From: Massalongia carnosa
Taxonomy: Eukaryota
DNA length: 64,000 nucleotides
Assembly: GCA_965645245.1 (NCBI GenBank)
Contig: OZ287068.1
Coordinates: forward strand, 2,232,001-2,296,000
Direction of reading: 5' to 3'
The notes beneath the pieces are model-generated. The model had not been told where the DNA came from. It saw only the letters and a list, made by a program, of their open reading frames with translations, and did not search any database. Below, one piece after another: positions 9,890 through 55,983 of the stretch (position 1 is its first letter; each line of letters opens with the position of its first letter). The translations under genes and the position numbers were made by a program.

Positions 9890-9926
9890 TATATAGAGAA
9901 GTATGTAAGAAGCTATAGTGCTCCTA

Positions 9927-21572: not shown

Positions 21573-21617
21573 GGGGTTGGTGCAGGAGGCAGTAGAATAG
21601 CTTCAATAGCTGAATTC

Positions 21618-31716: not shown

Positions 31717-31868
31717 CAATTGAAAGCTATTTACTCAATTGAAAAGCTATTTACTCAATTGAAAGCTATTTACTCAATTGAAAGCTATTTACTCAATTGA
31801 AAGCTATTTACTCAATTGAAAGCTATTACTCAATTGAAAGCTATTTACACAATTGAAAGCTATTTACA
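31717..31868 (+). repeat. Minisatellite: 8 copies of ~19-bp CAATTGAAAGCTATTTACT
   Basis: Directly visible head-to-tail units with single-base indels, immediately 3' of the Tc1 ORF stop codon. Confidence 0.95.
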
Positions 31869-31873
31869 TCAAA

Positions 31874-35610: not shown

Positions 35611-36939
35611 TCGAGCGTTGAGGCTACTCTTTCATGCTCGGTTTGATCAAGATCAGCAATATATGAGGTTAGTCCTCACGTCACTTACGATAAATTATCA
35701 AGCAAAGTGTCGAATGCCATCAAAGCTAAATTGCGGGTGGAAGAACAACATGTCAAGCAATGTTTCAGCATATTCAATGCTGCTGAAGTTTTGTGAGAGT
35801 TCTTCCCATTCTGCTGAAAATGATGATGCAACTACAGCTAGTAGACGATAGAGAACATAGAGTCATGCCAAAGCAGACTCTCTTGGAGAAGGTTGTTTCC
35901 GAGAAAGCTATTTCCGAGATGGACGTCTCCAAGAAGGACGTCTCTGAGAAGGACGTTTCCGAGGAGGCCGTTTTAGAGATCTTCTCTGGAATCTCCTCAG
36001 GCGAGAAGGGTTTGTCAGGTCAGAACAGCTGAGTTTTGCCGACACTCTCCATCATAAATTCGGTGATTGATCTATCGCATTCAAACTTGTATGAAAGAAC
36101 TGAGACTAATTTATTTACTGCGTCAGGCTGCCCTTTCTTCTACATGGTCGCTTGATACGTTGTGTTCTCTGCGCATATTGCAATTCAAGCTAACAGTCTT
36201 ATTTTTCAGGTCTTCCAAGGCACGTCTCTTATCTGCCTTGTTTCATCGGTTTCATACATGTTGTGAGAGGAGGTAAGGGAATGACTCGATGAAGCCATTG
36301 AAGACTAGATCGTGCGAGACAGCAACGAGAACGGGAAACATGGCATGAGGATGATAGCATTCATAGAGCTGTAAATTAGAAGCTGTCACTAAATCAATAA
36401 CTTGTTTCCCTAATCATCATTTGGGCGAATACAGCATGTGAACTCGAATTTAACTCAGCTGTAACGAGGTTGCATGGACATGATATCTCTTTTATAGGAT
36501 TGTTTTCTGATCGTTTTATCCGGAATACGATCTTGAAGGTCTTAAGATCTTGTCAAAACTGAGACGATCTTTAAATCATTTTCAGATGCTCTTTAATGGA
36601 AAGCACTGGCTCAAACATCAATTTTCACCCATGGCAATGTCGGTCTGAGGGCAGATGGTGGAATTGATATGAAAACATAAGTGGATCAGCTAGCTGAATC
36701 TCAATAATGAGATATCGAGTACAACGATTCCATTCCATTATCATAAGTCCAGCAAAAGCAACAAGTAGGCAAAGCTTTGAATAGACGCCTACTCCACCAC
36801 ATTTTTTTTAAAAAATATCGTCGTCTTTCTATCACGTAATTACTCTAGAGGAATAGATTCCGTTGGCTCTAAGAAAGGAATAACATTACGCGTCCGAAGT
36901 CTTTGCTCGGTTGTTTCCCGACGCTGGTGATTCTAAAGA

Positions 36940-38550
36940 ATGATCACGAACGAATACGCCTTGACGCGTGAAATGAGTGAAGCCTACCACTTAACATGTA
37001 AAGCGAGGGAGGTACTAAAAGGTATGGGGGAGACCGTACCAGGCGCAGTAGTGAGTCGCTGGATACTCGCATTGGTGGAGTTCATAGAACAAAACGAGGC
37101 AAAACGCGACGCGCCTGACGCGTCGAATCAAGAAAGTCTTCAAAGCACACTGCACGACATACAACAAAGATTACAGAAGATTGAGAAGCAGGGAGAAAAC
37201 AATGGAAAAGCGCTCAGCTACGCCGCCGTCGCGTCTGGGGGCCGTAGGGGAACGACTGGGGATATCGGAAAGACGCAGACCCAAATCGATGAAAACATGC
37301 TTAGAGAAAAGAGAAAGATGAAAGAACTCATAGTCAGAATAGAAGATCCCAAAGAGCAAGAGGCCTTGGGAAGAAAGACGACAAAAGAAATCATAGAAGC
37401 TATAAAAATCCCCAACAGCGAGATAGCGGGTATCAGGAAGCTCCCCAGCGGGGATTTGAAAATCCACACCAAAACAGCGCAGGCTAAGCAGAGCCTCCAA
37501 TCACAACCAGCATGGATAAAGAATGTGGCGGCATCGGCGACGATTCGTAAAGAGGGATACGCGGTAATAGCACACGGCATGCGGATGAACGATGTACGAG
37601 GACCAAAACAAATGAAGGCCATAGAATATCTGATAAGAGAAAACAAGGATCTGCACGAAGACCTAAAAATTAATAGAGTGGCATGGAGCACTAGAGCCAT
37701 TAAGCAGAACAAGAGATACGCGTCTATGCACATCGAGGTAGAAACTGCGGAGATGGCCAATCGGCTCATCCTCGTAGGTCTAGCAGACAGAGGAGAAATC
37801 AAGACGTGCGAGCTATTCGAAGCCGGATGCAAGCTCACACAATGCTTCAATTGTCAACAATACGGCCATATAGCAAAGTTCTGCAGAAATCCCACCACAT
37901 GTGGATACTGCGCGGGGAGACACGAAAGCCGATCGTGCCCCGGCAACAAGGCGCCGAGGTTCCTACGATGCGGAGCGTGTGGAGAAAAAGGCCACCCAGC
38001 ATGGGCGGCAGAATGCAGAACAAGAAAGGAGAGAAAGCATCGAACGGAAATCGCAAGGGACTCCGCTAGAAGACTTTACGCAACACCTCCGAGCGGGAGA
38101 GAAGAGGAAAAGAGAAAGGAAAGAGGATTAGGATCGAAAAGCACACCATCTCCCAACGCACCGCTGCAGAACGTCGAAGTGATCATCACAACCGACAACA
38201 ACAAAGACACCCAACGAAGCCAGACCGACGGGACAGGGAGCACCATAGTAGAGGAGGAAGAGGTACAGGAGACAAACGATGAAGAAATGACAGAGGCTAT
38301 GGAAACAATAAGAAAAAGAAAGCCAAGCACGAACCTCGCAGGAAGACCGCTGGTGGCACGATCGCGATCATTATCGCCCAGGAGAGAGGATAGAGAGAAG
38401 CCCCTACGAGGAAGAGAAGAATGGAGAACGACAAGAATGATGAATCCGGAGATTCGAGAAATGGCCTTCGCCAAGCCGGTGAGAGGTCGTCCACGCATCA
38501 GGACGCCAAGCACTAACGAAGAACTTCTCAACAATGACGATCAATTATGA
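36940..38550 (+). CDS. LINE ORF1 (gag-like, CCHC zinc knuckles)
   Basis: QCFNCQQYGHIAKFC, CGYCAGRH..C and CGACGEKGH..C. Confidence 0.92.
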   Translation: MITNEYALTREMSEAYHLTCKAREVLKGMGETVPGAVVSRWILALVEFIEQNEAKRDAPDASNQESLQSTLHDIQQRLQKIEKQGENNGKALSYAAVASGGRRGTTGDIGKTQTQIDENMLREKRKMKELIVRIEDPKEQEALGRKTTKEIIEAIKIPNSEIAGIRKLPSGDLKIHTKTAQAKQSLQSQPAWIKNVAASATIRKEGYAVIAHGMRMNDVRGPKQMKAIEYLIRENKDLHEDLKINRVAWSTRAIKQNKRYASMHIEVETAEMANRLILVGLADRGEIKTCELFEAGCKLTQCFNCQQYGHIAKFCRNPTTCGYCAGRHESRSCPGNKAPRFLRCGACGEKGHPAWAAECRTRKERKHRTEIARDSARRLYATPPSGREEEKRKERGLGSKSTPSPNAPLQNVEVIITTDNNKDTQRSQTDGTGSTIVEEEEVQETNDEEMTEAMETIRKRKPSTNLAGRPLVARSRSLSPRREDREKPLRGREEWRTTRMMNPEIREMAFAKPVRGRPRIRTPSTNEELLNNDDQL

Positions 38551-41500
38551 GAGACACGAACACTCTCACAATTCTGCAGTACAACGTCAGGAAAAGTGCG
38601 AAAGGCACACTGATACCATTGCTTGCAGACGAGAAAACAAAGAATTTCGATATCATTGCTATTCAAGAACCATGGAAAAACCCTACAACGGCCCTACTAC
38701 TCAACCCCTATCAGAGCGGGTTTCACTTACTTTACAAATCCGGAGGAGACACACGCGTCTGCTTCTATATCAACGAGAAGATAGATCCAGAAAGTTGGGA
38801 CGTGGAATATCCAACAGAAGATCTATGCACATTGAATATAGAAATCAGAATAGGAAGCGTGTTAAGAAAAATTCATATACACAACATCTACAATCCATCC
38901 CCGTTATCTATCTCAGCGACGGATAGTCCGTCTACCCTACCGGCCGCCCTGCGTCAACTGAACGGGCCAGGAGAACACATCTTGCTAGGGGATTTCAACC
39001 TTCATCATCCACATTGGGGAGGTGCGAGAGTGCGAGGTCAACACGAGGCGTCCGAACAGCTACTAGACATCATTGAAAGTAAAAATCTTTCGCTCACCCT
39101 GCCAAGAGGAACAGTGACATGGGAGGCAAGAAACTCATTCAGCACCATCGATCTGGTGTTCATGACGGAAGATCTCGTAGAAAGATTGGAACACTGTATC
39201 ACAGTCCCGGAGCTGAATCAAGACTCAGATCACGTACCAATATCGACGAGGCTCCGCCTCACCTGTGAACCCCTTACGCCTCCCCGCCGAAGAGCCTGGA
39301 AACTCCTGGACATGAATAAACTGAGAGAAGTTGAGAGAAATGCCCCCACACCACGCGTCGTACGAGGCGCCAACGAAATTGATGCATACACTGCAGATAT
39401 TCAAGACTACCTCAAAAGAATCGTTCAGGAGGCGGTACCATGGGCTAAACCTAGTCCCCAGGCGAAGTCCTTCTGGAATAGAGAGTGCGAGGAGGCAACG
39501 AAGGAGACCCGCAGGCTTCGTAGGATCTGGACGGCGGAAAGAAATCTGTCAGACTGGAAAAACTACATCAGAATGAACGACAAAAAACAGAAAATCATCG
39601 GTAAGGCAAGAAATCTTCATTTCAGAGAACAAATGGCCGAAGTTGCAGCATCAAGAACAGGACTCTTCCGACTCGCAAAATGGGGCAAAGACAGAAGCGA
39701 CGCACCAAGAGAAATTCCAAAAATGCCCCCGTTAGCAACAGCACAAAATCCCAATACGATAGCAGACACGTTCGAGAAGAGAGTAAATATGCTGAAGAAG
39801 TCCTTCTTTCCCCCTCCTCCTAACGCGGATCTCGGGGATCTCGTAGGATATTCGTACCCTCCAACACCAGAATGTCCAGCACTGATAACGGAAGAAGAAG
39901 TGGCGGCGGCGCTGCGAAAGCCAAAGCCAGACAAAGCCCCAGGACCGGATGGAATCACAAATAGAATTCTCAAAGCCTGTTCAGAAAACCTAATCAAATT
40001 GCTGACACCACTTTTTCAAGCATGTGTGAATGAAGGATATCATCCGAAAGTCTTTAAAATCGCCAACACTATCACGCTAAAGAAGCCAGGAAAAGGAAAC
40101 TATACGGATCCCAAGGCATGGAGACCCATAGCGTTGTTGAACACGTTGGGCAAAGCATTGGAATCCATTATAGCAAGGAAAATTAGCCATCTGACGGAAG
40201 AATTTAAACTGATCCCGGATACTCAAATGGGTGCAAGGCCGGGCCGCGGAACGGAAACAGCACTGGAGCTGCTCACTGAACAAGTGCACACCGTATGGAA
40301 TCAGGGTAACGATAAAGTGGCATCTCTATTGAGCATAGACGTATCGGGAGCCTTTGACACCGTCTCTCATCGTAGGCTCATTCACAACATGAGAAAACGA
40401 AAGATCCCAGAGTGGATAGCCAAATGGACGGATAGTTTCTTGAAAGAAAGAGAAACCACGCTCACGATTAATCAACGCACCACTAACGCATTTCCGCTGA
40501 GCATAGGAATCCCTCAGGGATCTCCTCTATCTCCCATTCTATATCTCTTTTACAATGCGGACCTCTTAGACATTTGCAATAGACCCAGCACAAACGCGGC
40601 AGGCATAGGATTCGTAGACGACGTGAACATCCTGACATATGGCAAATCCACGGAAGAAAATTGCAAAACATTGAAAGAAATACACGAGAATTGCGAACGA
40701 TGGGCGAAACGCCACGGCTCCGTGTTCGCGCCGCATAAATACGAGCTCATACATCTAGCAAAAAATCCCAAGAAATTCAATCTCGAAGCTTCCTTCACAG
40801 TAAACGGCAAACTACTCAACGTCACGAAATCTGTACGAGTGCTGGGGGTGTACATAGACACGAGGCTCAATTGGTCGGCGCACTACAAAGAGATACAGAA
40901 GAAAATGACGAGACAAACGAGAGCGCTGACTAGAATCGCCGCAGCCACTTGGGGTGCGACCCTCCTACAAGCCCGTCACGTGTACACGGCGGTGGTACGC
41001 CCGGCAATGACCCATGGTTCTCTGGTATGGCACACGCCGGAGGAAACACAAAAGCACGTCAAAGTCACGAGGAAAAGCAAACTCGAGATCGTACAAAACA
41101 AATGTTTACGAGTAGTAGCCGGAGCGTACAGGGCCACACCCATCGAGGTGTTACAGGCGGAAACATTCATCTGTCCATTGACGCAACATTTGGATCATCT
41201 GCAGGCCAAAGGTAGATCGAGGCTACAACACAACGGTCAGGCAAAAGTCATAGAACAGGCATGCGAGAAAATCAGAACGAGATTGAAAGGGAAAAGAGGG
41301 CGACAACGGATTATTGGAGAAACACCGGGAGCTCGTAGACAGAGATGGGTGGCCAAGCTGACAGCTGAAGTATCAACAAAGAGAAAGCCCAAACGCACAC
41401 CACCATGGGAAAAAGCGGAGAATGCACAAGAGGAAAAACGAGCAGAATATGCCGCACTTCAAAGAGAAAGAGACGGAATCATAGCGAAACGATTTAAAGA

Positions 41501-41921
41501 AAAATGGAAGGACAAATGGATAGCGTATCAATCAATACATACGCTTGATCCAACAATAGCACAGTCGGGTCCATTGCACAAAAACAGGTTGAACACGCAC
41601 AAGCTGCTGAATAAGGCGCAAAGCTCCCTCGCAATTCAAATTAGAACAGAGAAAATCGGGTTAGCGAGTTTTCTATTCAAACGCAAGGTGCCAGACATTG
41701 AGTCCGCGGCCTGCCTGTGCGGAAGCCGCTTTCAAACGGCGAAACATGTGATAATGTTCTGCGGATTGCATAATAGAATCGATATGTTGCGTGCAGCTGG
41801 CTCGCTGGATTATCAAAAACTGATAACAGACCCCAAAGCGATCAAAATAATCACTGCATGGCTTATGCGTACGGGCATACTAACACAGTACACCATTGCC
41901 GCGCAAATGACGGAGCAATAA
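38547..41921 (+). CDS. LINE ORF2 (APE endonuclease + reverse transcriptase + C-terminal Cys/His)
   Basis: LQYNV, IQEP, GDFNLHH, SDH, KAPGPDGI, WRPIALL, GIPQGSPLSP, FVDD and CLCG..TAKHVIMFC. The ATGA overlaps the ORF1 stop. Confidence 0.95.
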   Translation: MRDTNTLTILQYNVRKSAKGTLIPLLADEKTKNFDIIAIQEPWKNPTTALLLNPYQSGFHLLYKSGGDTRVCFYINEKIDPESWDVEYPTEDLCTLNIEIRIGSVLRKIHIHNIYNPSPLSISATDSPSTLPAALRQLNGPGEHILLGDFNLHHPHWGGARVRGQHEASEQLLDIIESKNLSLTLPRGTVTWEARNSFSTIDLVFMTEDLVERLEHCITVPELNQDSDHVPISTRLRLTCEPLTPPRRRAWKLLDMNKLREVERNAPTPRVVRGANEIDAYTADIQDYLKRIVQEAVPWAKPSPQAKSFWNRECEEATKETRRLRRIWTAERNLSDWKNYIRMNDKKQKIIGKARNLHFREQMAEVAASRTGLFRLAKWGKDRSDAPREIPKMPPLATAQNPNTIADTFEKRVNMLKKSFFPPPPNADLGDLVGYSYPPTPECPALITEEEVAAALRKPKPDKAPGPDGITNRILKACSENLIKLLTPLFQACVNEGYHPKVFKIANTITLKKPGKGNYTDPKAWRPIALLNTLGKALESIIARKISHLTEEFKLIPDTQMGARPGRGTETALELLTEQVHTVWNQGNDKVASLLSIDVSGAFDTVSHRRLIHNMRKRKIPEWIAKWTDSFLKERETTLTINQRTTNAFPLSIGIPQGSPLSPILYLFYNADLLDICNRPSTNAAGIGFVDDVNILTYGKSTEENCKTLKEIHENCERWAKRHGSVFAPHKYELIHLAKNPKKFNLEASFTVNGKLLNVTKSVRVLGVYIDTRLNWSAHYKEIQKKMTRQTRALTRIAAATWGATLLQARHVYTAVVRPAMTHGSLVWHTPEETQKHVKVTRKSKLEIVQNKCLRVVAGAYRATPIEVLQAETFICPLTQHLDHLQAKGRSRLQHNGQAKVIEQACEKIRTRLKGKRGRQRIIGETPGARRQRWVAKLTAEVSTKRKPKRTPPWEKAENAQEEKRAEYAALQRERDGIIAKRFKEKWKDKWIAYQSIHTLDPTIAQSGPLHKNRLNTHKLLNKAQSSLAIQIRTEKIGLASFLFKRKVPDIESAACLCGSRFQTAKHVIMFCGLHNRIDMLRAAGSLDYQKLITDPKAIKIITAWLMRTGILTQYTIAAQMTEQ

Positions 41922-44900: not shown

Positions 44901-47039
44901 GATTGTGAAAAATGATGAATGGATGGATAAATAGAAGATCATTACGACATAAGGAATCACTATAAGAAAAAACGGGGGTTTTATTTTGGACTCGATAAAT
45001 AGGGTTTCCCATCTTTTTAGCTCAAAGCCCACTTGCTTACCTTTTGATTCCCTTTCCTCCCCCTCTCTTTTCCCCTTCCTTCTTCTTCTCTCTCACCATT
45101 TCCCCTCACCAAACCCATTCCTTCCTTCCATCCCATCCACCCCAATCTCACCGTCCAGACACGAAGCAGCGGCACTTGGTGATCAGATACCCGCATTCAC
45201 AATCCGGCTCCTGGTGCTGCGGGATCTGGACCTGGACCTGGATCAGGGGTTGATAGGATGACGAAATGGAATTGGAGAACGGGAATGGGGATGGGAAAGA
45301 GAATGAAGAAGAGGAGAAGCGGGGGGGTGTGGGGGGTGGGGTGGGGGGGAAATCGCCGTAGGGGGAGGGTGTGGGGTAGGAGTAGGCCATTGTCTTTCTT
45401 TTTTTGAGGGAGGTTTGAATGAAAAAATAGGGGTTTTTCTTGGATGGGGTGTGAGAGTGCGAGGTATATTTGAGAGGTGTGGTTTGGGCGTGGTGGTAGA
45501 TAACGTGTAATCTCTGACGATTAGTTAAGTGCTTGATCGATTGATCGATTGCTCCGACTAATATGGTTGTTTAAGAGCTTTTCCAACAAATATCGAGATG
45601 TGGGAAGTGTTCCGGAAATGCTGCTGAACGTGATGATGATGGTGATGATAGTAGTTGATGATAAGTAGTTGTTAAGAAATTGGGTTTGGAATGACTCTGG
45701 AGCGAGTTTTTGTAGGGGGTGCTGGATATGAGGAGAGGGGAAGGATAAAGAAAGGGGGGGTTTTTTTTCTTGGGAGACAATCAAGTTGCTTTAACCGTTT
45801 AGTTGGTTTCTTTACTTTCTTTCTTTCGTTTCGTTTGTTCTTTCTGGGCGATTTTTGAACAAATGATTGCTATGAATAAACGAGATTTGCGCCTCTGAAA
45901 GGTGATTGGTATCCTGGAGTATTCGCAGGGATGGGAGGAGGCTTTTTTTGCGAAAAGGAAGAAGAACCAAGAAAGCGAATTGCTGAAAGACAATGAATGT
46001 CATTATTTCCCATTCTTCCCTTGTCCCCTCTATCCTCTCAAAATCTACTTCTCTACTCTCTTCTCCCTATCTCTCCCTCCCTTGAAAAAATTTAAAATAA
46101 AGAACTGAAAGTAGAATACCTCGTAACTCGTAACTCGTTTGCAGAATTATGAATGAGAGATGAGACGAACAGAAACGAAACGTCACAAAGAAAGAAAAAA
46201 AGGGAAGAGAGCATACATCTGCCAAAAATCTAGAGGCACTTTAAAGATTTTCGAAAGAAAGAAATAAACGAAAAAAAAAACGTCGACTTAATACAGTTTC
46301 CAAGGCAATATCTATTCATCCCTCGCAACGAAAACACGCGGCCAAGCTCCGAAAAGCCGTTCTGTTCTGTCCGTCTATACAAACATAGCCAGAATCTAGA
46401 TATAACGAAACGAAAGAGCTGATGATGATGATGATGATGATTAGCAAATCATGAGAAGTCCGAAGGGATAGGTAGGTAGGTAGGTAGATAGTCGTTGCCT
46501 GCCGGCCATGAAACCTAGCATTTCTCGTCCCTAAGAGGGTAACCTATCCAGATCCAGTAACAAGGGCGAGATGCACCGTTCATGACTCAATGTGCCAGGA
46601 TATACCGGAGCTCTCATGTAATAGTGCGTTAATCGCGAAGTCTAGGGCGGTTGTAACATTCGGGGCCTTCCTTTGGAGTAGCAAGGGGGAAGGGAGTGCG
46701 ATGGACGAGTACATACATAGGAGTTAAACAAGGGTTCTTGCTAGGAGATGAAACCATCTGTTTGGTTAAATTATTCATGACCGTACCTGATAAAATAACA
46801 CGAGTTGGAGTGATAGTATAACACGACGGCAGGTAGGAAAAGTACGACAGCATTGACACTCTCACATTATAGCGTTATATCGGGGGAAAATAATCTTTGC
46901 AAAGTAGTCGCGAGAAGCCAAATCGCATCAATATAAAGGCCAGAACCGAAGGCTCTGCCCCATGCACAGTCCCGAACCCTTCCCCCGCGCTTACGATACC
47001 AAACCGAAAGTGTACGAGGATAAGTAGAAAAGCCAGCAC

Positions 47040-48809
47040 CTACAAGCCCGAATCGATTTCCTCCACTACGGTGTGGCCGCTGTACGTGGCCCAGTCGCGG
47101 CATGTCTGCCGGATGGTCTCCGGGATGATACGTTTCGTGATAAGATCGGTCTGTTCCATCATGTTGACGTACAGCCCAGCGGACACGTGCCAGGCGATAT
47201 GACAATGTAACGGCCAAACACCCGGGTTGTCCGTGTTGTACTGGATGACGATAAAGCCAGAAGGTTGAACTAGTTGCACGTCACGCCGTTGGGTGTTTTC
47301 GATATGTGCGATTTCTCCATTCCAGTCGCCAACGCCTTCAGCCAGAACATTGAAATTGTGTCCATGTAAGTGCATCGGATGGGCTGCGAGACTTTTATTA
47401 TTGATGATAACGCGCACGCTGTTGTTGTTGCCAGTATTGTGCACGTTCCATTGAGGGTCAAACGGATAAGAAGTGTTGCCGTCATTAGCAAGGAGTAGGA
47501 TGGGATGATCGTAGTTAGCGCGGAAAGACTCGTTGTTCATGGCCCATAGTCCATGACCGGTCTGGTTTTGGAATCGGGTGATGGTGATGATTTCTGTTGT
47601 CTCTGGGGTTGAAGTGGAGGGAAACGGGAAGAATGGAACGGTTTTTTCTAGATCGTCATTGCCGCAATGAGTGTCATTGAAGGGAGTTGGGTTCGAGGGT
47701 GGCGTGGCCGTGATATTGGCGTTCTCATAATATATGGCTCCCAAAGCGAGTCTCTGATCACCGTCAGAGCAGGCACTGATTGTGGAGCGCATGAACACCG
47801 AAGAGTTTGCTGGTAGATCCGCCTTGACAAGGACATCTGTGCGCTGGCCAACGCCTAGCGTGACCACATTCGTGGTATACGGCTGTATAGGTACAAAATC
47901 ATTGGCTATGACGGTCATGATGTGGTTGTCGATGGAAAAGCGCATGATGGCCTCTGCAGCGCCGTTGATAAGCCGGAGGCGATGAGTCTTTCCCGATGTG
48001 AATTTGAATTTTGAAATGCCAGCGTTGGCTGTACAATCAATGTCAGGTTTTCTTTTGCAGTCGTAATCCATCTTGCCGTTGATCAGGTTGTTGTCAGAAA
48101 CAGGTTTGAAACTCGCTACTCCAGGGGCGGTTGGCGTCATAAGCTTTTCTATAATGCTGAAATACTCATCGTGATACCAATCAGTGAGAAAAACCGGGCC
48201 GATATCTAAATCATAGTCTACGTTCTTGGGTCCGTGGATAATTAGAGGTCCGAGTAGCCCTGCAGCATATTGGGCGGAATAATGCGAGTGATACCAAGTT
48301 GTTCCGTAGAGATCTGCTTTGAATTGATAGGTAAGCGATTTACCTGGGGCGATAGGACACTGTTGAACAGCAGGAACCCCATCAAACCACGGAGTGGCAC
48401 GTTGAAGAATGCCATGCCAATGCAAAGCAGTGCCTTCTTCTGGACCCGTGATCTGGTTATGAACTTGGACTTGAATGGTATCTCCCCAGTTGGCTTCAAT
48501 AGTTGGCCCTGGAAATTGACTGTTGACCAAGATGACGCTTTTGTTAACGCCATCAGGAGCTATGAGGCCTCGCGTGATCGTAAAGTCATATGATCGGATA
48601 ACCCCTGTAGTTGGTGACTGTTCGTACGGATTTGTCGTAGCAGCAGTTCGAGTTCCCCATGGGTAGCCGTTAGGCAAAGGATTGTTGGTCAAAAAGTCGG
48701 CAACCAATGGCGCTTTCAGGGTCCCTAATAGCGATAGGCCATTAGTTGCTATCTGGGAAAGCGCTGCCAATAACGAAACGCTGTTGATGATTGTTTCGGC
48801 AACGCCCAT
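47040..48809 (-). CDS. Laccase / multicopper oxidase (AA1), intronless, likely secreted
   Basis: Four Cu-binding motifs: HWHG, WYHSH, HPMHLHGH and HCHIAWHVSAGL. Ascomycete-type C-terminus DSGL. Confidence 0.96.
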   Translation of the reverse strand: MGVAETIINSVSLLAALSQIATNGLSLLGTLKAPLVADFLTNNPLPNGYPWGTRTAATTNPYEQSPTTGVIRSYDFTITRGLIAPDGVNKSVILVNSQFPGPTIEANWGDTIQVQVHNQITGPEEGTALHWHGILQRATPWFDGVPAVQQCPIAPGKSLTYQFKADLYGTTWYHSHYSAQYAAGLLGPLIIHGPKNVDYDLDIGPVFLTDWYHDEYFSIIEKLMTPTAPGVASFKPVSDNNLINGKMDYDCKRKPDIDCTANAGISKFKFTSGKTHRLRLINGAAEAIMRFSIDNHIMTVIANDFVPIQPYTTNVVTLGVGQRTDVLVKADLPANSSVFMRSTISACSDGDQRLALGAIYYENANITATPPSNPTPFNDTHCGNDDLEKTVPFFPFPSTSTPETTEIITITRFQNQTGHGLWAMNNESFRANYDHPILLLANDGNTSYPFDPQWNVHNTGNNNSVRVIINNKSLAAHPMHLHGHNFNVLAEGVGDWNGEIAHIENTQRRDVQLVQPSGFIVIQYNTDNPGVWPLHCHIAWHVSAGLYVNMMEQTDLITKRIIPETIRQTCRDWATYSGHTVVEEIDSGL

Positions 48810-50754
48810 GATGCTGGTGACCGGGTGAGGAATTTCAAGGAGGCGTAGCCTTGATGTGAGAAGCGCTTGAGTAGCGTAATATCCTCAGCGAGTAAAACGA
48901 GTGGAGAAAACGAATGCTAGTGATGTAGTTGAATAAGGGGGATGAGTAGTATTGAGGGAGTGGATAGAAATATATATACGGAATCCCCTTTATGGATAAC
49001 TTAGATCTTCGGAACTTGACAAACGAGCAAGACAATCCGAGGAACCAGCCCGGTTACATTAATTGAAGGCAACCAAGCGATATTTTTTCACTGGCTGTTA
49101 AACTAAGAAAAATTTTACGGTATGAATATTGATATTATCCAGTAAGTCGGTTGGGGGCATCTGCTCCACTCAAGGTTAGAGTAAGTCGCAGAAAGGGGTA
49201 ATCACCACGATTCACAGCCACGATATTAGTTGCTATTTTTAAAAATTTCATGGACACTCCAAGATCCTCGTCCAATGCATGAATTTCATTTGATACTTCC
49301 CCATTGAATAGGTTACGCATGCCTTGACGTATGGGATTTCATGAGTAAATTTCTCCAACTCTTCTTGTGACTCATGTAAGTTCCCTTTTGCTGATGATTT
49401 TCATCAGTTACCGACATGCTTGTTGGGTGATTCCCAGTCTTTCAACATCCGGTCAGAGTAGGAAGGGGCGAAGTGGGAGAAAACACCCCTAGCACCCACA
49501 AGAACACGAGGATCAGCAGACGGCATTGATACCATAGACGGCTATCAAGCGTAACAAGCAGGATCAGATTAAACGGAGTTCCACAAATGCTACGTAGTCT
49601 ATCAGTTATCGTCACTAGCTGTTCTTTGCATATAAAATCCAGTTCATAAAGGGGCTGGAACCAGGAAGTAATTGATGTTGATCATATAGGGCTGTTGGAT
49701 ATCTATTTACCCGTCTTGGAGGACAGATGGAGCGTATCTTGCAGAAACATGCAGGAACGGCAAGCGCTTGTTATTGAAAGTTCCGCATTTACCCCATAGG
49801 TTGTCTGAATGATCTGGTTGGAAGTAGTAATCGCGAAGTACTTGGCATTTTGAAGGAATGATTTAGAAAAAAAAACGGCAATACTGCAGACGCTCTTCCC
49901 CAGGCCCAGTTGATGGGCAGAGTATAGAGTATGCAGCAATGGGTTCTACCCATATCCTCGGGTCTCGGCTTCTGGCTTTTCGCCTGCAAGACATATCATG
50001 TAGTTTTCACGTACTCTGTACAGAGTAATACTAGAGAGATGCACGAAGAAACCCCTCCAAAGATCACATAGTCTCGATGAATATCAACCAAGAAGATGAG
50101 CAAGATCATGGGGTTGCATTTCTCCTATGTCCGGTTTGTGCCAATGCTCACGTCAGATTGCAACGCCAGCAACACGGACGCTAAGGTATGATGGATGACC
50201 CGTTGACCAAGGAAGCGACCAAAAATCAGCGCATAGGACTAGTTAGAGATGATAATAATAGTAGTATACCAAACTGAATCGCAACCCAAAACCGAAGCTG
50301 AAACCAAGCATATGCCCGGACGGTCAGGGGCTGGAAGCTGTGGATTTGGATCAGCTTGTATCGTAAGAATGATAACTTACCGAGGCATCGGAATTCCGAT
50401 GGACATAACAGCTAGACCATAAGGGCAAGTGTGATGGAGAGGATAGGAATCCTTCGTCCTGCTGTCTTCGTGTCATGGAGGTGTACTACGCTTGCGCCGC
50501 GAAACATAACAGAACGAAGTGAGCCATTAGTCCATACTTACCTAAGCAGACCATCGAGCCACGTGATCTCCTGGCCCCCTATGATGGAGGTAGAAAACTG
50601 TTTCCATCTTTAACCCCACGGGCCCTTTAGATTCTCCCCCTTCATGAAGTTCTCAACTCTTAAATGCACCGTCTCTGATGCAGTCTACTCTAACTAAAGC
50701 AAGTGCCTTGGCAGGATTCGCGTTCTCTTCCCCCCACCTCATCCTACCCTTTTT

Positions 50755-51839
50755 TCACCCCGAATATCCGTCACTTCCCCTAATCTCACATCTTTCCATC
50801 CAGCCCACTATTCTATCCCACTTCCGGCACCGATGCGTTGTCGAGAACTCTGCGCGTGCACCCCCTGGCGCTTCCGAGTCGGCGCGGATGGGCATGGGCG
50901 TTATGTCGCCAGCACACATGAGGGCGAGCCGCAACGTTTCGATACAGTGATCGATGTGTGTGCGGAGTTTCATCTTGGGGACGGAGAAGCCAGGGGGTGG
51001 GGAGGAGTATTCGTCGAGGTAAATGTATTGGCGGATCATGTTCTAGGGAAGTTCGAGTTAGCTTTGAGGGTGTACGGTGGGGGGATGATGCCTGGCAGTA
51101 CGATGGTGCGGTCTTCAGAAAAGTTGTCAAGGAGATTATTACTTACCAAACAGTGAAGTTGATGAAATATCTCTACCGTTGCTTCGATTCCGCCTCCCTC
51201 TTCGGCCGGTGTTCGCATGTAATCAACGGATGTCGAGTAGTTCAATGCGCTCAATTTGTCTTCCGGGACGTCGATTGTTCCGTCTAAAATCCATGAGGTT
51301 AGCAAGGAACGGAACATTCGAGTTCAACAAACCCAACGCAAAAGGGTTGCCTCACGTTTCCATAAACCTTCCCATGCCTTCTCTCGCTCCGGAGTGGGGT
51401 ATCCGCGATAGATGGATGGCTGATTGAAGTCATTCGCAAAGGTTACGTCTTCATACTCTACTGCTTCCATCATGGGTGCTAGGATTCTGTTAGCCATCTT
51501 AACGATAAGGGTGTGATTTCCTAAGAAAACTTAAGAGGCGCTAATACAGTATGAAGAAAGCTTGTTAGCGCACTCCCTATCACTCGGTTTCTTTAATGTT
51601 GCCGCCACCAATATTCCAAGCGAGACGACGAAGAGTACAGAGCCTACAAAAATAGGCCATAACGACACGATGTTGAAGCGAGACCTTCTAGGCTGGTCAT
51701 CATTTTCTGACTTGCAAGTGATATCCGGGAATGGAAAGCTGGACGCATGCTCATAGCGGTCGAAGGAAGAGGGTCGGGGGGGGATTAGAAGGTAGTGAAA
51801 AAGTCTTCGCTGTGCCATTGGTAAGACCGATTGTAGCAT
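50755..51839 (-). CDS. UstYa-family (DUF3328) oxidase, 4 exons: 51839-51548, 51478-51356, 51283-51147, 51042-50755 (start could be 51818)
   Basis: N-terminal TM helix, YRGYPTPEREKAW, two HxxHC motifs (FHQLHCL, HIDHCIETLRLALMCAGD) and HRCRKWDRI. Three GT-AG introns with CTAAC branch sites splice in frame. Confidence 0.93.
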
Positions 51840-52603
51840 ACAGGATAGCTGAGTTGCGGACGTGTTCGCTGGGATACTTCCGTTCCTGGACTGAGATGAG
51901 CGAGAGAGAAAGAGAAAAGTAAATGCAGTGAAGGTTCACAGCTGGGAGAGGGGATGTTGTAAATGGAAGGAATGGCTAAGAGGAATGTGGAGGAGACATG
52001 AGACGAGGGTTCGCAGTCTCAGGCCCAAACGGGTGGATGTCACTTCGGTGGCATCCATTTCGGCCAGTCACCCAACACTTGCAAGGCCTAACTAGTGAGT
52101 TGTGCGTATGGGGGACTCGCTTGTTGCTACCTTGATGATTTGTTCTTTGTTTATGTTCGCTTGGAGCTCAACAAGCTACCGCTATAATGGTGATAGCCCT
52201 ATGCAACTACCAAACCGAGTCACTCAACAGCGATGGCGAACTTTCCGCTTCGTTGACAATAAAGAGTTGATGACCAGTTGCAGATCAGTTTTGAAGCGAG
52301 TCGTCGGGCGTGCCTTGTGAGGTGGTGAGTGAGCTTGCTTAAGGCTTACCGAGGGCCTCGCGGTAGAAGAGGTTATTTTTGTTATTTTTTCTTTTCATTC
52401 ACGCATCTCGCTACACACTGTCTTCGATGTAATTCCCATTTCGGTCGTAAGTCGGGTTTCCACCAATGGGAGTAATCTCCGGTATGGTGTTGCCCTACGA
52501 AAGCTGCAAAGTATTTGTGATGTAAGCTTGTTGGCATTAGGCGGCATCGCGATGAACATGAACATTTCCAGTAGCCCTAATTACTTAGCGAAGTTCCCCC
52601 CAC

Positions 52604-52697
52604 TTGTGGGTCTGGTAGGTCGGGTAGGTCTTGCAGCCCTTGTAGCGCTTGTAGCGCTTGTAGCCCTTGTGGACCTTGTGGATCTTGTGCACCCTTG
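52604..52697. repeat. Degenerate 9-bp tandem repeat (CTTGTAGCG/CTTGTGGAC-like)
   Basis: About 10 units visible in the intergenic region between the DUF3328 gene and the precursor gene. Confidence 0.7.
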
Positions 52698-53079
52698 CCA
52701 GATACACTTTTCCTTTGTCCAGAAAAAACCTTCTTTGTCTGGACTTGTCTAGGCCTGTTCCACTCGGTTCAGAGCCCAACGTTAGAGTCAACATTAGGTA
52801 CAGTAGTATCACATTCTTCCCTTTAGATCGTAAATGTCCATCACAATTCGTCATCACAGGGGTGATTATGCAATTTGTCTAGCCTATCACATAGTCAGTC
52901 AGGATGGTATATAACACCCTCATCCCCCCATCCTTTTTCTCTCGTCAGTTTCATTCACATCAAACAGAAAATCATCTCCATTATCAAAGTTCCTGTATCA
53001 AAACCAATCCTACCTTTGCATCTCCGTTTCGATCAACCTCAAGTTAAGCTTGTCTCAATATCGAACCACACCATCCACG

Positions 53080-53700
53080 ATGCAGATCATAGCCTTTGCT
53101 GCCGTGGCTCTTGCAGCCTTACACTTTGCCTTGGCTGCCCCAGCAGCTCAACCTAACATCACCCAGCGCGACCCAATAGAAAATAAAGGGGAGATCCAGC
53201 CATGGTTCGTCGACGTCTATGATGAAGCCACTGGAACTACCGAGCATGTGTACGTCAATCCATCCACGGTGAAGCGTTCTCCAATGCAACATAAAGGAGA
53301 GATTCAACAATGGTTTGTGGACGTGTACGACGAGGAAACGGGGACCACCAAGCACGTTTATGTCGATCATTCCAAGGTCAAGCGCTCTCCAATGCAGCAT
53401 AAAGGAGAGATTCAACAATGGTTTGTAGACGTGTATGACAAGGCCACCGGAGAGACGAAGCACGTTTATGTCGATCCATCCATAGTAAAGCGTTCTCCAA
53501 TACAGCATAAAGGACAGATTCAACAATGGTTCGTGGACGTATACGACGAGGAGACCGGGATCACTAAGCATGTTTATGTCGATCCGTCCATGGTGAAGCG
53601 TTCTCCAATGCAGCATAGAGGAGAGATCCAACAATGGTTCGTGGACGTGTATGACGAGAAGACCGGAGAGACCAAGCATGTCTATGTCAATCCGGAGTAA
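53080..53700 (+). CDS. Secreted Kex2-processed repeat protein (KEP); putative RiPP (dikaritin-type) precursor with five 36-aa repeats
   Basis: Signal peptide MQIIAFAAVALAALHFALA. 108-bp repeats encoding SPMQHKGEIQQWFVDVYDxxTGxTKHVYVDPSxVKR separated by KR. Adjacent to the DUF3328 gene. Confidence 0.88.
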   Translation: MQIIAFAAVALAALHFALAAPAAQPNITQRDPIENKGEIQPWFVDVYDEATGTTEHVYVNPSTVKRSPMQHKGEIQQWFVDVYDEETGTTKHVYVDHSKVKRSPMQHKGEIQQWFVDVYDKATGETKHVYVDPSIVKRSPIQHKGQIQQWFVDVYDEETGITKHVYVDPSMVKRSPMQHRGEIQQWFVDVYDEKTGETKHVYVNPE

Positions 53701-54645
53701 ACTTGCTGCAAGTATTCTTCCGCCTCCCAGCCTTTCGCAAATTCACCGCGCTAACCAGAGTCTAGCCAAAAAAAAAGGTCATCCCCTCGCCTTGCAAGAG
53801 TTCTCGCAGAAAGGAAAATGGGTTGGGGCATAGATTCAGTGCATAAATTTTCTTTCTTTTTGTGGATGCATAGAGGGTTTGAGAAGATATTCGGGGGGGG
53901 GGGTTGGTAGGTTGGATGTTGGATGTGGATAATAGAAGGTTAAAGGAACATAAGATGCGATGCTAGCTTGCCTCCTCATTTTTGTTCTTCCTCTTCATTT
54001 CTTATGCGGTGATGGTTCACCTAATTCCCGCCTTAACCTATCTAGACAAAAAGTTGACTTGAATTTCAGTACCACGTCATCATGCGCTTTCTCCAGTCCT
54101 CGATGTTCCAACGCATCGCCACGCCGGAACGGAGTCCTCTTTCACGCTACAGCAGCCCAGCCTTGCGAAGGAGAATCGAGGAATAGATGAAGGTCGATGA
54201 TTGAGCTTGAGGAAGGAGTTAACGCAGTTTCAACCGTTCGGAAAAATCACCCAGCCACATCTTCCATCCTAAACCCCCCCAAGTCCCCTGCGTTAGCCAG
54301 CTGCTTACCCGCCCGTGCCCGCCGATTATAGAGGCTTTCTCTAAACCATTTTCGGATTAGCCTTGTTTTGCAAGAGTAAAGCCGTCGTTTTGCCGTAGTA
54401 AACTTCGGCGAGTTAGTCAGCGTACTCCGTACCACATCTCCTGACCTGCCATAATACCCTACATAGATTGTAGCCTACATACTACGTACACCTACACATA
54501 GACATATACCTACCTACCTAATAACTATCACAAAAGAAGACCAAGTGACGATCGACCGGCGGCCTTTTCGAGGGATTGGTGGCCTGTTTGGTTTTAATGG
54601 GCGCTAGACTGGTGAGGATGGTAGGGGAAGGAGGGAGGTAAGGTA

Positions 54646-55983
54646 CAGTACTAGGTCAAAAGTTTCCGACAGCTCCCCATCAACTTTTTACCCCCCCCAC
54701 TGCTTTGAATTATCAACCACCAAGTTTTTATTTTATGCCTTGAAACTTGGTACGATGATTACATACATTCTAGCAAGGAATTTGGGATGAGAAATATATT
54801 TTTAATATTTCGTATACCATCCTTTCGATTGGATGCAAGCTTCAATCCTCCTTTCCATGCTCTCTATTAAACTTCTCAACATTTCCTCATCTATCAAGGC
54901 CTATGCTTCTTCCAACGCTTTCCAAAGTACCTCGCGGACCTTATCATCACTACCAGTCACCGAATCGATGTCCGGATTGACTTGATAAAAGAGCTGTTTG
55001 AGCACATACCAAACGTGCTCGATGGGGTTCAAATCAGGAGAATAAGGAGGCCAATCGATGATTGTTATACCGTTTTCATCGAACCATTTCTTCACCTTTT
55101 TGGCAGTATGAATCGGTGCATTATCCTGTATGAAAATGAAGCCCGGTTCCCAAATTTCAAGCAGATTATCGTTCAATAATTCCAAATATGAATTCGCGGA
55201 GTACCCCATCTTCTTTGCTTCGAAATCGCGGGCCAATTTGTAAAGATCTGACCTTCCTCTCATACAAAAAGCCCCCCATACCATAACCTTGACCTCCTTG
55301 CCTTTGGCGTACGGTTGTATCATAGGTTTTTTCCATTTTTCCTCTGGAAATCTGAACATCCATTGACGCTATTTTCCTGACCCCTTTTCCACCGAACACT
55401 CGTCTGACCATATAATTTTTGACCATTGCTCAGAAGTCCACTCACGCCGAAGCAAGCACCATTCTAATCTCTTCTTTGCCACCTCGGGCGTCAATAAAGG
55501 CCGCTTTTTAGCCAGCCAGTTTGTTATACCGTAGTCTTTGAGCGTCCGATAGAGAGTGGATCGACTGCATTGCAACCCGGCCTCCGTACGCAGCTGCGCA
55601 TAGGTGATGCGTGGATTGATTCGTGCAAATTTGATGATACGTCTTCTATCGCGATCCGAAAATATTCCAGGCCGACCTGCTCGCGATTTGGACTTTTCGT
55701 TGTTGCGTTCTGAGTGCTTTTGAAGAGTGTAAATGACGGTGGTTCGAGGCACATTTAATGTCTTTGCAATTTCGGCCGGTGCATGCACCAACGCCTGGGC
55801 TCCAATAATCATACCTCTTTGACATTGATTCAATTTGGTATTACGAGGCTTATTACCAGAAATTGAAGCCAACGGAGTGCGTGGCATGGTGAAATGATGA
55901 GGTCAAAGTTGATGGGTTGGAGGGGTTGAAACGCGAAATCACGAAAATCGCGGGTAGAGTCGGAAACTTTTGACACGGGACTG
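54646..55983 (-). mobile_element. Tc1-like (DD34E) transposon with TA TSD; transposase disrupted
   Basis: TIR CAGT..GTCAAAAGTTTCCGAC / GTCGGAAACTTTTTGACACGGGACTG flanked by TA. Motifs IWSDEC, QDNAPIH and WPPYSPDLNPIE, with in-frame TAG stops (~55369, ~54901). Confidence 0.9.

What the first reader, a model, noticed from the sequence alone, without database searches (positions are those of the whole stretch)
50755..53700. Candidate new fungal RiPP locus: DUF3328 oxidase divergently paired with a five-repeat Kex2 precursor of unfamiliar core sequence
Seen: a signal peptide plus five near-identical 36-aa units split by KR, head-to-head (~1.25 kb apart) with an intact two-HxxHC DUF3328 gene. Established: ustiloxin, phomopsin and asperipin-2a (dikaritin) clusters use this precursor + UstYa pairing for oxidative crosslinking of aromatic residues. 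Inference: the unit (..GEIQQWFVDVYDEETGTTKHVYVD..) matches none of the cores I recall. It is long and has invariant Trp, Phe, two Tyr and His, so it may yield a new (poly)macrocyclic peptide.
Basis: partly seen in the sequence, partly recalled or inferred. Interest (0 to 1): 0.9.

Follow-up and report, generated by a model that had tools for sequence, protein, structure and literature searches.

The report
Lichen-fungus repeat peptide precursor with UstYa oxidase
A fungus found in lichen samples carries a secreted protein made of five copies of a 36-residue peptide right next to an oxidase of the type that cyclises fungal peptide toxins, a well-known kind of gene pair whose peptide here is new and whose product is unknown.

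Summary
ORF 53080-53700 (+) encodes a signal peptide followed by five KR-delimited units (units 2-4 are 36 aa). It lies 1,240 bp head-to-head from an intact four-exon UstYa/DUF3328 gene (50755-51839, -) that has both HxxHC motifs and an N-terminal membrane helix. The units are old and under purifying selection (pS 0.36-0.85, dN/dS 0.21).

This is a Kex2-processed repeat protein (KEP) paired with UstYa, the published genome-mining signature of dikaritin-type fungal RiPPs. Umemura 2020 counted 1,758 such pairs, so the kind is known.

What is new is the peptide. Only two fragmentary homologues turned up among about 15 billion predicted proteins, and no searched paper holds the motif. The closest UstYa relative with genomic context (metagenome locus L001, same clade, support 96/89) has the same head-to-head layout. 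Its KEP core EWFDDAY shares W-F-x-D-x-Y with the window's QWFVDVY, so the pairing looks inherited and that heptad is the likely core.

Not shown here: expression (no RNA run was listed), cleavage, any modification, or the product. The adjacent laccase is probably unrelated. The host is a fungus present in lichen samples, a group with no characterised RiPP.

Verdict: a real new member of a known kind, of moderate interest.

The parts
53080..53700 (+). Precursor gene (KEP), single exon, 206 aa plus stop: signal peptide, short pro-region and five repeat units
   Evidence: ORF. Tandem repeat of period 108. Units and KR sites. dN/dS between units 0.21.
53080..53136 (+). Predicted signal peptide (aa 1-19, cleavage after ALA)
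   Evidence: Read from the translation by the -3/-1 rule. No predictor was run.
53137..53277 (+). Pro-region plus unit 1 (aa 20-66), ends in KR; no KR precedes its core
53278..53385 (+). Unit 2, 36 aa: SP..QWFVDVY..TG.T.HVYVD....KR
53386..53493 (+). Unit 3, 36 aa
53494..53601 (+). Unit 4, 36 aa
53602..53697 (+). Unit 5, 32 aa, C-terminal, no KR
51840..53079 (.). Shared 1,240-bp divergent intergenic (promoter) region; contains a 9-bp microsatellite at 52630-52679
   Evidence: ORFs in it have no Pfam hit.
50755..51839 (-). UstYa/DUF3328 gene. Four exons: 51839-51548, 51478-51356, 51283-51147, 51042-50755 (the last includes the stop). 279 aa.
   Evidence: Pfam PF11807 on three exon pieces. Splice model. 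Alignment across the junctions with P0006-P0008.
51150..51164 (-). First HxxHC motif (HQLHC), at the end of exon 3
   Evidence: Sequence; translation.
50944..50958 (-). Second HxxHC motif (HIDHC), in exon 4
   Evidence: Sequence; translation.
47043..48884 (-). Neighbouring laccase-type multicopper oxidase (stop-to-stop frame; first Met near 48809). Probably not part of the locus.
   Evidence: Three Cu-oxidase Pfam domains. Best solved relative is laccase 3sqr, E 2.1e-107. No multicopper oxidase in the 8 related loci scanned.
54904..55902 (-). Tc1/mariner-type transposase remnant bounding the locus on the right
   Evidence: DDE_3 and HTH_Tnp_Tc3_2 in two adjacent frames.

Best explanation
This is a two-gene biosynthetic unit of the ustiloxin/dikaritin type (KEP plus UstYa) for a ribosomal peptide, in a fungus present in lichen samples.

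Inferred course of events:
1. The 206-aa precursor enters the ER through its signal peptide.
2. The membrane-anchored UstYa protein faces the same lumen and oxidatively modifies each repeat at the invariant aromatic core QWFVDVY. The most likely reaction is a Tyr-centred crosslink (macrocycle) within W-F-x-D-x-Y.
3. Golgi Kex2 cuts after each KR, releasing five copies.
4. Exopeptidases trim the flanks to a short mature peptide.

Shown here: the anatomy of both genes, purifying selection on the units, and recurrence of the head-to-head pairing with a related core next to the closest UstYa relative.

Inferred only: cleavage, the modification and its position, the trimming, and any activity.
For: (1) Anatomy. 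The signal peptide plus five KR-delimited units meet both published KEP definitions (definition passages). The UstYa gene is intact with two HxxHC motifs and an N-terminal hydrophobic helix.

(2) Adjacency is the known signature. In Umemura 2020 (section 7 read):
- DUF3328 gene counts peak at the position next to KEP genes.
- 31.8% of 9,399 DUF3328 genes lie within 15 genes of a KEP.
- 30.1% of Ascomycota KEPs have one nearby.
- Repeats with DUF3328 neighbours contain Tyr in 65.6% against 38.2% without.
- The abstract adds that pheromone-type KEPs almost never have DUF3328 neighbours.

(3) Conserved pairing. In a tree of 23 C-terminal-exon rows, the window's UstYa forms a clade with L001 and L002/L003 (support 96/89). 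L001 carries an intact UstYa (both HxxHC) head-to-head with a KEP holding five EWFDDAY repeats and one variant.
- W[FY].D.Y occurs in 940,030 six-frame residues only in these two precursors and once elsewhere.
- Each precursor is the other's top tblastn hit (E 0.028; E 0.022).
- Of the 7 judgeable UstYa genes of the subclade, 4 have a head-to-head KEP: the window, L001, L007/8 and L010.

(4) Selection. dN/dS between units is 0.21. Across 8 units from three sources, WFVDVY and VYV are invariant, while the leader is poorly conserved.

(5) Population variation. In a lichen-metagenome contig about 1.4% diverged (93 differences over 6,571 bases), no indel is listed in the UstYa exons. None is listed in the part of the precursor CDS that the contigs cover, although the repeat is assembled there in small pieces.
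Against: - No expression data: no RNA run holds the locus.
- No tyrosinase, methyltransferase, transporter or peptidase lies in the window, so the cluster is minimal.
- Every KR is followed by Ser-Pro, a STE13-type X-Pro signature. Le Marquer 2019 reports this signature as absent from the known cyclic-peptide precursors and typical of unmodified hormone-like KEPs (passage).
- The 36-aa unit is conserved along its whole length in the two close homologues, not just in a short core.
- Sequence homology to the L001 precursor is not statistically established: hhalign probability 18.9% over 9 columns.
- Three relatives in the same UstYa subclade show no KEP in the flank held: L003 (6.2 kb), L004/5 and L006.
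- UstYa proteins also act in non-RiPP pathways (passage).
Confidence: 0.65

Rival explanations
1. The precursor is an ordinary KEP that releases five unmodified linear peptides of about 32 aa after Kex2, Kex1 and Ste13 trimming. These would act as secreted signals, or as surface-active peptides like the Ustilago Rep1 repellents. The UstYa gene is then a chance neighbour or serves another substrate.
For: - The Ser-Pro after every KR is a STE13-type signature that Le Marquer 2019 links to unmodified hormone-like KEPs and reports as absent from the known cyclic-peptide precursors.
- KEP peptides of 25-50 aa are a recognised size class, and Rep1 of U. maydis is a Kex2-processed precursor of hypha-attached peptides.
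- The whole unit is conserved, not only a short core.
- 78% of KEPs have no DUF3328 neighbour.
- The ESM-feature neighbours include an alpha-factor precursor cluster at 0.83. That is under the 0.9 level, so it is a lead only.
Against: - Chance adjacency is unlikely. Umemura's count gives about 6 DUF3328 genes per genome on average (9,399 in 1,461 strains), yet here one is the immediate head-to-head neighbour.
- The same layout with a related core recurs beside the closest UstYa relative.
- Pheromone-type KEPs almost never have DUF3328 neighbours (abstract).
- The relatives' units carry Pro at other offsets (KR-A-T-P, K-A-D-P), so the Ser-Pro need not be a Ste13 site.
Confidence: 0.22
2. The protein is not cleaved. 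It is a secreted or cell-wall repeat protein built of tandem beta-hairpins, and the KR dipeptides are just linker residues.
For: The AlphaFold2 model predicts a strand-turn-strand for every unit (WFVDVYD / KHVYVD). The strands are invariant and the turn positions vary.
Against: - The model is unreliable (mean pLDDT 34.7, none of the 206 residues above 50) and shows no packed domain.
- KR is strictly kept at every unit boundary in the window and in both homologues.
- There is no Pfam or PDB relative.
- Relatives next to related UstYa genes have much shorter units (18-24 aa) that could not form domains.
Confidence: 0.06
3. The locus is a decaying remnant in a transposon-rich region and makes nothing.
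For: The window is crowded with transposon remnants (Tc5/pogo, PIF1-helicase pieces, MULE, LINE, three Tc1/mariner copies). A Tc1/mariner remnant lies 1.2 kb from the precursor's stop. No RNA holder was listed.
Against: Both reading frames are intact. dN/dS between units is 0.21. All splice sites and catalytic motifs are present. The locus is held in runs of three studies, and the diverged contig shows no listed indel in the coding parts it covers.
Confidence: 0.04

Closest known systems
Asperipin-2a locus (aprA precursor plus a single DUF3328 gene aprY) of Aspergillus flavus
   Same: A KEP precursor with a Tyr-rich repeated core and only one UstYa-family gene, with no tyrosinase. That asperipin-2a has just one DUF3328 protein is stated in Umemura 2020 and in Pasinato & Singh 2025.
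   Different: The asperipin cluster also has a reductase and a transporter; neither is in this window. Its hexapeptide core sequence, which I recall rather than took from a call, is unrelated, and its units are short. Here the unit is 36 aa with two conserved aromatic blocks.
Ustiloxin and phomopsin clusters (UstA/PhomA plus UstYa/UstYb or PhomY, tyrosinase, methyltransferase)
   Same: A signal peptide, KR-delimited repeats, UstYa with two HxxHC motifs, and a Tyr in the core.
   Different: - Those cores share EDYxI; this core does not.
- UstA units are 13-14 aa.
- Those clusters have several DUF3328 genes, a tyrosinase, a methyltransferase and more. This window has one UstYa and none of the others.
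Epichloecyclin locus (gigA, gigB = DUF3328, gigC, kexB)
   Same: Long imperfect repeats (27 aa) that yield short (8-9-mer) Tyr-containing cyclic peptides, with a DUF3328 protein needed for cyclisation. This is the best precedent for a long unit that harbours a short core.
   Different: No methyltransferase or dedicated kexin lies nearby here. The core is unrelated (INFKIPYT against QWFVDVY).
Uncharacterised KEPs next to related UstYa genes in metagenome loci and GenBank (L001 EWFDDAY; L024/L018 and P0010-P0015, including a Kalmusia sp. hypothetical protein, PQ[WF]YD[ILV][ST]Y[IV]DKR)
   Same: - Secreted KR-delimited repeats.
- A W/aromatic ... Tyr core with the same W-to-Y spacing (L001, L024).
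- A Pro upstream of the core.
- UstYa as the immediate neighbour, head-to-head in L001.
   Different: - Their units are 18-24 aa. The window's unit has 8 extra residues before the core and about 13 after it (DEETGTTKHVYVD).
- L018 and L024 have two UstYa genes flanking the precursor.
- Homology rests on a 9-column match plus synteny, not on significant alignment.
Yeast and filamentous-ascomycete alpha-factor pheromone precursors
   Same: A signal peptide, KR sites, and an X-Pro dipeptide after KR (a STE13-type signature).
   Different: - The released peptide would be about 32 aa. The typical alpha-pheromone length of roughly 9-13 aa is recalled, not taken from a call.
- Pheromone KEPs almost never have DUF3328 neighbours.

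Membership tests
Kex2-processed repeat proteins (KEPs; Le Marquer 2019, Umemura 2020) | N-terminal signal peptide for the secretory pathway | tested here: met
   Hydrophobic N-terminus with an ALA|A site, read. No signal-peptide program was available, so this rests on inspection.
Kex2-processed repeat proteins (KEPs; Le Marquer 2019, Umemura 2020) | At least 3 tandem repeats of at least 8 aa between dibasic Kex2 sites, none longer than 100 aa (definition passage) | tested here: met
   Four KR sites. Five units of 32-36 aa, the first preceded by a pro-region.
Kex2-processed repeat proteins (KEPs; Le Marquer 2019, Umemura 2020) | Actual cleavage by Kex2 in the Golgi | not testable with these tools
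   Needs peptide detection or a kex2 mutant.
UstYa / DUF3328 (Pfam PF11807) | Match to the family profile above its gathering score | tested here: met
   Exon pieces score 67.2, 28.2 and 30.4 bits against a cut-off of 25.
UstYa / DUF3328 (Pfam PF11807) | Two conserved HxxHC motifs, the suspected active site (passage) | tested here: met
   HQLHC and HIDHC, aligned with the motifs of homologues.
Dikaritins, strict definition (Ding et al., as quoted in Pasinato & Singh 2025) | Precursor with an N-terminal leader and repeated core/recognition motifs | tested here: met
Dikaritins, strict definition (Ding et al., as quoted in Pasinato & Singh 2025) | Tyrosinase in the cluster | tested here: not met
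   No Tyrosinase hit among 157 stop-to-stop frames of at least 85 aa scanned from the 161 in the window. A laccase-type multicopper oxidase is present instead.
Dikaritins, strict definition (Ding et al., as quoted in Pasinato & Singh 2025) | Methyltransferase in the cluster | tested here: not met
   None.
Dikaritins, strict definition (Ding et al., as quoted in Pasinato & Singh 2025) | Multiple DUF3328 proteins | tested here: not met
   Only one UstYa gene in the 64-kb window.
Dikaritins, strict definition (Ding et al., as quoted in Pasinato & Singh 2025) | Transporter or peptidase in the cluster | tested here: not met
   None in the window. Related loci L001 and L007 do have an ABC transporter, and L007 has an S10 carboxypeptidase.
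Dikaritins, relaxed definition (DUF3328 gene as the class-defining enzyme) | DUF3328 gene beside a repeated-core precursor | tested here: met
   Head-to-head, 1,240 bp apart.
Dikaritins, relaxed definition (DUF3328 gene as the class-defining enzyme) | Product with a Tyr-derived ether crosslink forming a macrocycle | not testable with these tools
   Needs mass spectrometry or NMR of the product.
Ascomycete alpha-type pheromone precursors | Short repeated mature peptide released by Kex2/Ste13, with no DUF3328 neighbour | tested here: not met
   The STE13-type Ser-Pro is present, but the unit is 36 aa and a UstYa gene is adjacent.

The most novel reading that the evidence does not exclude
The whole ~32-residue peptide, not a short core, is the mature product. 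It would be a beta-hairpin whose two invariant aromatic strands (QWFVDVY and HVYV) are stapled by one or more crosslinks installed by UstYa, possibly helped by the laccase. That would be by far the largest dikaritin-type RiPP and the first RiPP from a lichen-forming fungus.
Probability: 0.1. Interest if true: 0.8.

Novelty: new member of a known kind. Interest (0 to 1): 0.45.

Why it matters
The only survey of lichen-fungus RiPP clusters that I found (Pasinato & Singh 2025; abstract and passages read) reports three things:
- UstY homologues are widespread in Lecanoromycetes.
- No repeated-core precursor could be identified in its two conserved clans.
- No RiPP has been characterised from Lecanoromycetes.

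This locus offers a textbook repeated-core precursor next to a UstYa gene, in a fungus that occurs in lichen samples. It is a concrete two-gene target for heterologous expression.

It also points to an uncharacterised precursor family that travels with one UstYa subclade. Its core is W-[FY]-x-x-x-Y, seen as WFVDVY, WFDDAY and WYDITY. That family could be used to learn what this branch of the enzyme family does.

Beyond that, it is one more of thousands of predicted KEP/DUF3328 pairs.

Tried and rejected
- **No whole genome held:** one search was an error because no genome is held for this window. Copy number of UstYa genes, and the presence of Kex2/Ste13, could not be checked.
- **No RNA holder listed:** one search listed none. 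All four runs laid are contigs, so nothing can be said about expression or splicing.
- **Precursor scan of JGI metagenome contigs:** 67 pattern matches, 0 relatives.
- **Word-index search with the precursor:** 1 homologue.
- **Full HMMER search of 1.84 billion representatives:** 3 hits. One is a true homologue (P0002). The other two are repeat noise, one an ankyrin-like repeat protein and one another repeat protein.
- **Pfam on the precursor:** 15 families at E up to 0.1, but every one has 0 qualifying stretches. I rejected them as summed weak matches to a repeat.
- **AlphaFold2 on the 3-sequence alignment:** mean pLDDT 34.7, too low to use, so no fold search was run.
- **ESM Atlas:** best score 0.88, under the 0.9 level, so leads only.
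- **PDB sequence searches:** nothing for the precursor. Only chance-level hits (E about 0.5) for the UstYa exon.
- **hhalign of the window family against the L001/DITY family:** probability 18.9%.
- **Cluster look-up of P0001, P0002 and P0005:** no accessions or names. Whether the homologous precursor and the 65%-identical UstYa fragment P0005 share a contig could not be learned. The tool that fetches such contigs is closed.
- **Supplement searches for the motifs:** no occurrence in Umemura 2020. Its big table lists accessions, not sequences, so this blank means little. Also none in the four Le Marquer 2019 supplement files held.
- **Laccase as a cluster member:** considered and set aside, because none of the 8 related loci scanned holds a multicopper oxidase.
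- **Earlier findings of this scan:** nothing relevant.
- **No complex prediction was sent:** an enzyme with its substrate is a poor case for that test.
Full report
**1. The observation**

The plus-strand ORF 53080..53700 encodes 206 aa. It begins with a hydrophobic signal-like N-terminus. I placed its cleavage after Ala19 by the -3/-1 rule; no predictor was run.

It contains four KR dipeptides that divide it into five units:
- aa 20-66: a short pro-region plus unit 1
- aa 67-102, 103-138 and 139-174: three 36-aa units
- aa 175-206: a last unit of 32 aa without KR

Tandem Repeats Finder reports period 108 nt, 4.7 copies, 81% matches. Units are 69-86% identical as protein.

At the DNA level, synonymous sites between units are close to saturation (pS 0.36-0.85) while pN is 0.06-0.20, a pooled ratio of 0.21. 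The repeat is therefore old, and its peptide sequence is kept by selection. The long ORF on the opposite strand is a shadow of the repeat.

On the minus strand, three ORF pieces match Pfam UstYa (PF11807; E 2.6e-18, 2.1e-06, 4.6e-07). Reading the sequence, I built a four-exon model: 51839-51548, 51478-51356, 51283-51147 and 51042-50755. Its properties:
- GT..AG introns with CTAAC-like branch points
- 279 aa
- an N-terminal hydrophobic helix
- HQLHC at the end of exon 3 and HIDHC in exon 4

The model aligns without gaps at all three junctions to full-length DUF3328 proteins P0006 (Penicillium), P0007 and P0008. The two start codons are divergent with 1,240 bp between them.

**2. The surroundings**

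I scanned 157 of the window's 161 stop-to-stop frames of at least 85 aa against Pfam. The four left out are the precursor and three UstYa pieces, already scanned.

The window is rich in transposon remnants: Tc5/pogo DDE_1, PIF1-helicase pieces, MULE, two reverse-transcriptase elements and three Tc1/mariner copies.

Near the pair lie:
- a laccase-type multicopper oxidase (47043-48884, -), with three Cu-oxidase domains; the best solved relative is laccase 3sqr, E 2.1e-107
- a Tc1/mariner remnant (54904-55902, -)
- housekeeping genes beyond that (HIG1-domain protein, eIF2D, Sey1)

There is no tyrosinase, methyltransferase, transporter, peptidase or second UstYa gene in the window.

No whole genome is held. 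The stretch 46800-54500 is held by five runs from three studies. One of them is labelled lichen metagenome, and its contig differs at 93 of 6,571 bases. That contig shows no listed indel in the UstYa exons or in the covered part of the precursor. The host is therefore a fungus that occurs in lichen samples. No RNA run was listed.

**3. Relatives of the precursor**

The family is very small in public protein sets:
- The word-index search of 5.8 billion clusters found one fragment, P0001 (126 aa, cut at a contig end).
- The exhaustive HMMER search of 1.84 billion representatives found three hits. One is a true homologue, P0002 (78 aa). The other two are unrelated repeat proteins.

Both fragments keep KR-SP-x-QH-x-G-...-QWFVDVY-.E.TG.T..VYVD. 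Across the 8 units of at least 32 aa from the three sources, the invariant residues are Pro2, WFVDVY, two Thr and VYV. The leader is poorly conserved.

The motif occurs in no paper of the library searched. A scan of JGI metagenome contigs with the precursor found no relative.

**4. Relatives of the UstYa gene and their neighbours**

This is the most informative result. A scan of the same collection with the C-terminal UstYa exon returned 47 loci, many of them short or duplicates.

I searched their six-frame ORFs for repeated words with dibasic sites, and their DNA for tandem repeats. Twelve loci carry a KEP-like gene in the flank held. These collapse to at least seven distinct genes:

| Locus | Identity to the window's exon | Repeated core |
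|---|---|---|
| L001 | 55% | EWFDDAY, five copies plus one variant, 18-aa units |
| L007/L008 | 48% | VEWTEKY, six copies |
| L010 | 49% | PVIAIV-type, five copies, no aromatic residue |
| L018/L020 | 43% | PQ[FY]DITY[IV]DKKR |
| L024 | 41% | PQWYDITYVDKR |
| L025, L027, L031/L032, L038 | 37-45% | di-His type; L031/L032 are identical, L025, L027 and L038 are variants of the same type |

In a maximum-likelihood tree of 23 C-terminal-exon rows, the window groups with L001 and L002/L003 (support 96/89). L001's UstYa has both HxxHC motifs. It lies head-to-head with its KEP, as in the window. L007/8 and L010 are also head-to-head.

I could judge 7 UstYa genes in the 13-row subclade: the window, L001, L007/8, L010 first copy, L010 second copy, L003, L004/5 and L006, counting each identical pair once. 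Four have a head-to-head KEP. L003 (6.2 kb held, two UstYa genes), L004/5 and L006 show none. The remaining rows are on loci too short to judge.

**5. Is the window's precursor related to these?**

The window's QWFVDVY and L001's EWFDDAY share W-F-x-D-x-Y. L024's QWYDITY has the same W-to-Y spacing.

For a relationship:
- In 940,030 six-frame residues of the window plus all 47 loci, W[FY].D.Y occurs only in the window's precursor (5 times), L001's KEP (5 times) and once in the laccase.
- The two precursors are each other's best tblastn hit, but weakly (E 0.028 in 406 kb; E 0.022 in the window).

Limits:
- Profile-profile comparison gives only 18.9% probability over nine columns.
- The motif was chosen after seeing it, so the count is an indication, not a test.

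My reading is that these precursors probably share descent, or at least share a recognition core. The window's unit would then be an expanded form, with 8 extra residues between the Pro and the core and about 13 after it (DEETGTTKHVYVD).

A profile search with the combined alignment found six more small proteins of the PQ[WF]YD[ILV][ST]Y[IV]DKR type. One is a hypothetical protein of Kalmusia sp.. None of these motifs occurs in a relevant paper: 0 papers, and 11 unrelated chance strings.

**6. What the related clusters contain**

I scanned 148 frames from eight loci against Pfam:
- ABC transporter downstream of UstYa in L001 and L007
- S10 carboxypeptidase in L007
- Zn2Cys6 regulator in L010
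- a second UstYa and an RTA1-like protein in L018 and L024
- no multicopper oxidase in any of them

I therefore treat the window's laccase as a probable bystander.

**7. Mechanism**

Established knowledge, from passages read:
- KEP precursors enter the secretory pathway.
- UstYa-family proteins are required for oxidative cyclisation of Tyr-containing cores (ustiloxin, phomopsin, asperipin-2a, epichloecyclin).
- Kex2 cuts at KR.
- Further peptidases trim the products.

Unit length is no bar to a short product. UstA is cut into 13/14-mers that yield the ustiloxin macrocycle, and 27-aa GigA repeats yield 8-9-mers.

The literature statistics make chance adjacency improbable. DUF3328 genes peak at the position next to KEP genes, and about a third of all DUF3328 genes lie near a KEP.

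I therefore take as most likely (0.65) that UstYa modifies the invariant W-F-x-D-x-Y core of each unit and that a trimmed cyclic peptide is secreted. The crosslink, its position, the trimming and any activity are inference.

**8. Evidence against, and rivals**

Points against the main reading:
- Every KR is followed by Ser-Pro, a STE13-type signature. Le Marquer 2019 found it absent from the known cyclic-peptide precursors and proposed it as a mark of unmodified hormone-like peptides.
- The unit is conserved over its whole length.
- The released peptide would fall in the 25-50-aa class, like the Ustilago repellents.

The rivals:
- **Linear peptides (0.22).** These points keep this reading alive.
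- **Uncleaved beta-hairpin repeat protein (0.06).** It has only a low-confidence model behind it (pLDDT 34.7).
- **Decay (0.04).** It is contradicted by intact frames and purifying selection.

**9. Comparison and novelty**

The pair meets the KEP definition and the relaxed dikaritin criterion of a DUF3328 gene beside a repeated-core precursor. It fails four of the five features of the strict dikaritin cluster definition: tyrosinase, methyltransferase, multiple DUF3328 genes, and transporter or peptidase. The architecture is closest to the single-UstYa asperipin-2a locus.

The kind is known and numerous: 1,758 KEPs with DUF3328 neighbours and 2,560 stand-alone KEP types in Umemura 2020. This is a new member of it.

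What raises it above routine:
- **The host.** A 2025 survey of 111 lichen-fungus genomes found UstY homologues but no repeated-core precursor in its two clans, and notes that no RiPP has been characterised from Lecanoromycetes.
- **The unit.** It is unusually long, with two conserved aromatic blocks.
- **The family.** There is a hint of an uncharacterised W-[FY]-x-x-x-Y precursor family tied to one UstYa subclade.

Caveats on supplements: I could not see sequences in Umemura's supplementary table, which lists accessions only. That catalogue may already list relatives. The supplements of the lichen survey were not examined.

Noticed in passing
window 47043-48884 (-): An intact laccase-type multicopper oxidase lies 1.9 kb beyond the 3' end of the UstYa gene. 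Contigs of runs X1 and X3 also show a diverged second copy elsewhere in the same organism (partial matches with 5-11 differences per 40-70 bases).
   Followed up: partly
window 342-1064 (-): A frame with a full-length Ice_binding (PF11999) domain, E 1.3e-33. This fits a cold- or desiccation-exposed fungus.
   Followed up: no
window 3180-12200, 18629-24400, 30274-33055, 36937-41918, 54904-55902: A dense field of transposon remnants: Tc5/pogo DDE_1 with HTH_Tnp_Tc5, PIF1-helicase pieces, MULE, two reverse-transcriptase elements (one with an endonuclease domain and a 1,127-aa open frame) and three Tc1/mariner copies. The RiPP-like pair sits between such elements and housekeeping genes.
   Followed up: no
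window 52624-52688: A 9-bp microsatellite (5.6 copies) in the shared promoter region. The lichen-metagenome contig lacks one 9-bp copy at 52630.
   Followed up: no
L018 2800-3081 and L024 8138-8629 (both -): Precursors of the PQ[WFY]YDITY[IV]DK(K)R type sit between two UstYa genes, with an RTA1-like gene next door. The same peptide type occurs in a GenBank hypothetical protein of Kalmusia sp. (P0012). This looks like a conserved, uncharacterised dikaritin-like cluster type.
   Followed up: partly
L010 3355-3804 (-): A KEP next to a UstYa relative (49% identity) has a repeated unit (SSLAEDPVIAIVKPDNVGKR, five copies) with no aromatic residue at all. This is unusual for a supposed substrate of a Tyr-crosslinking enzyme family.
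   Followed up: no
L007 6618-7100 (-): A repeat precursor (VEWTEKYVKPE, six copies) beside a UstYa relative is delimited by single Arg (A-R-D) rather than KR. An S10 carboxypeptidase and an ABC transporter lie downstream.
   Followed up: no
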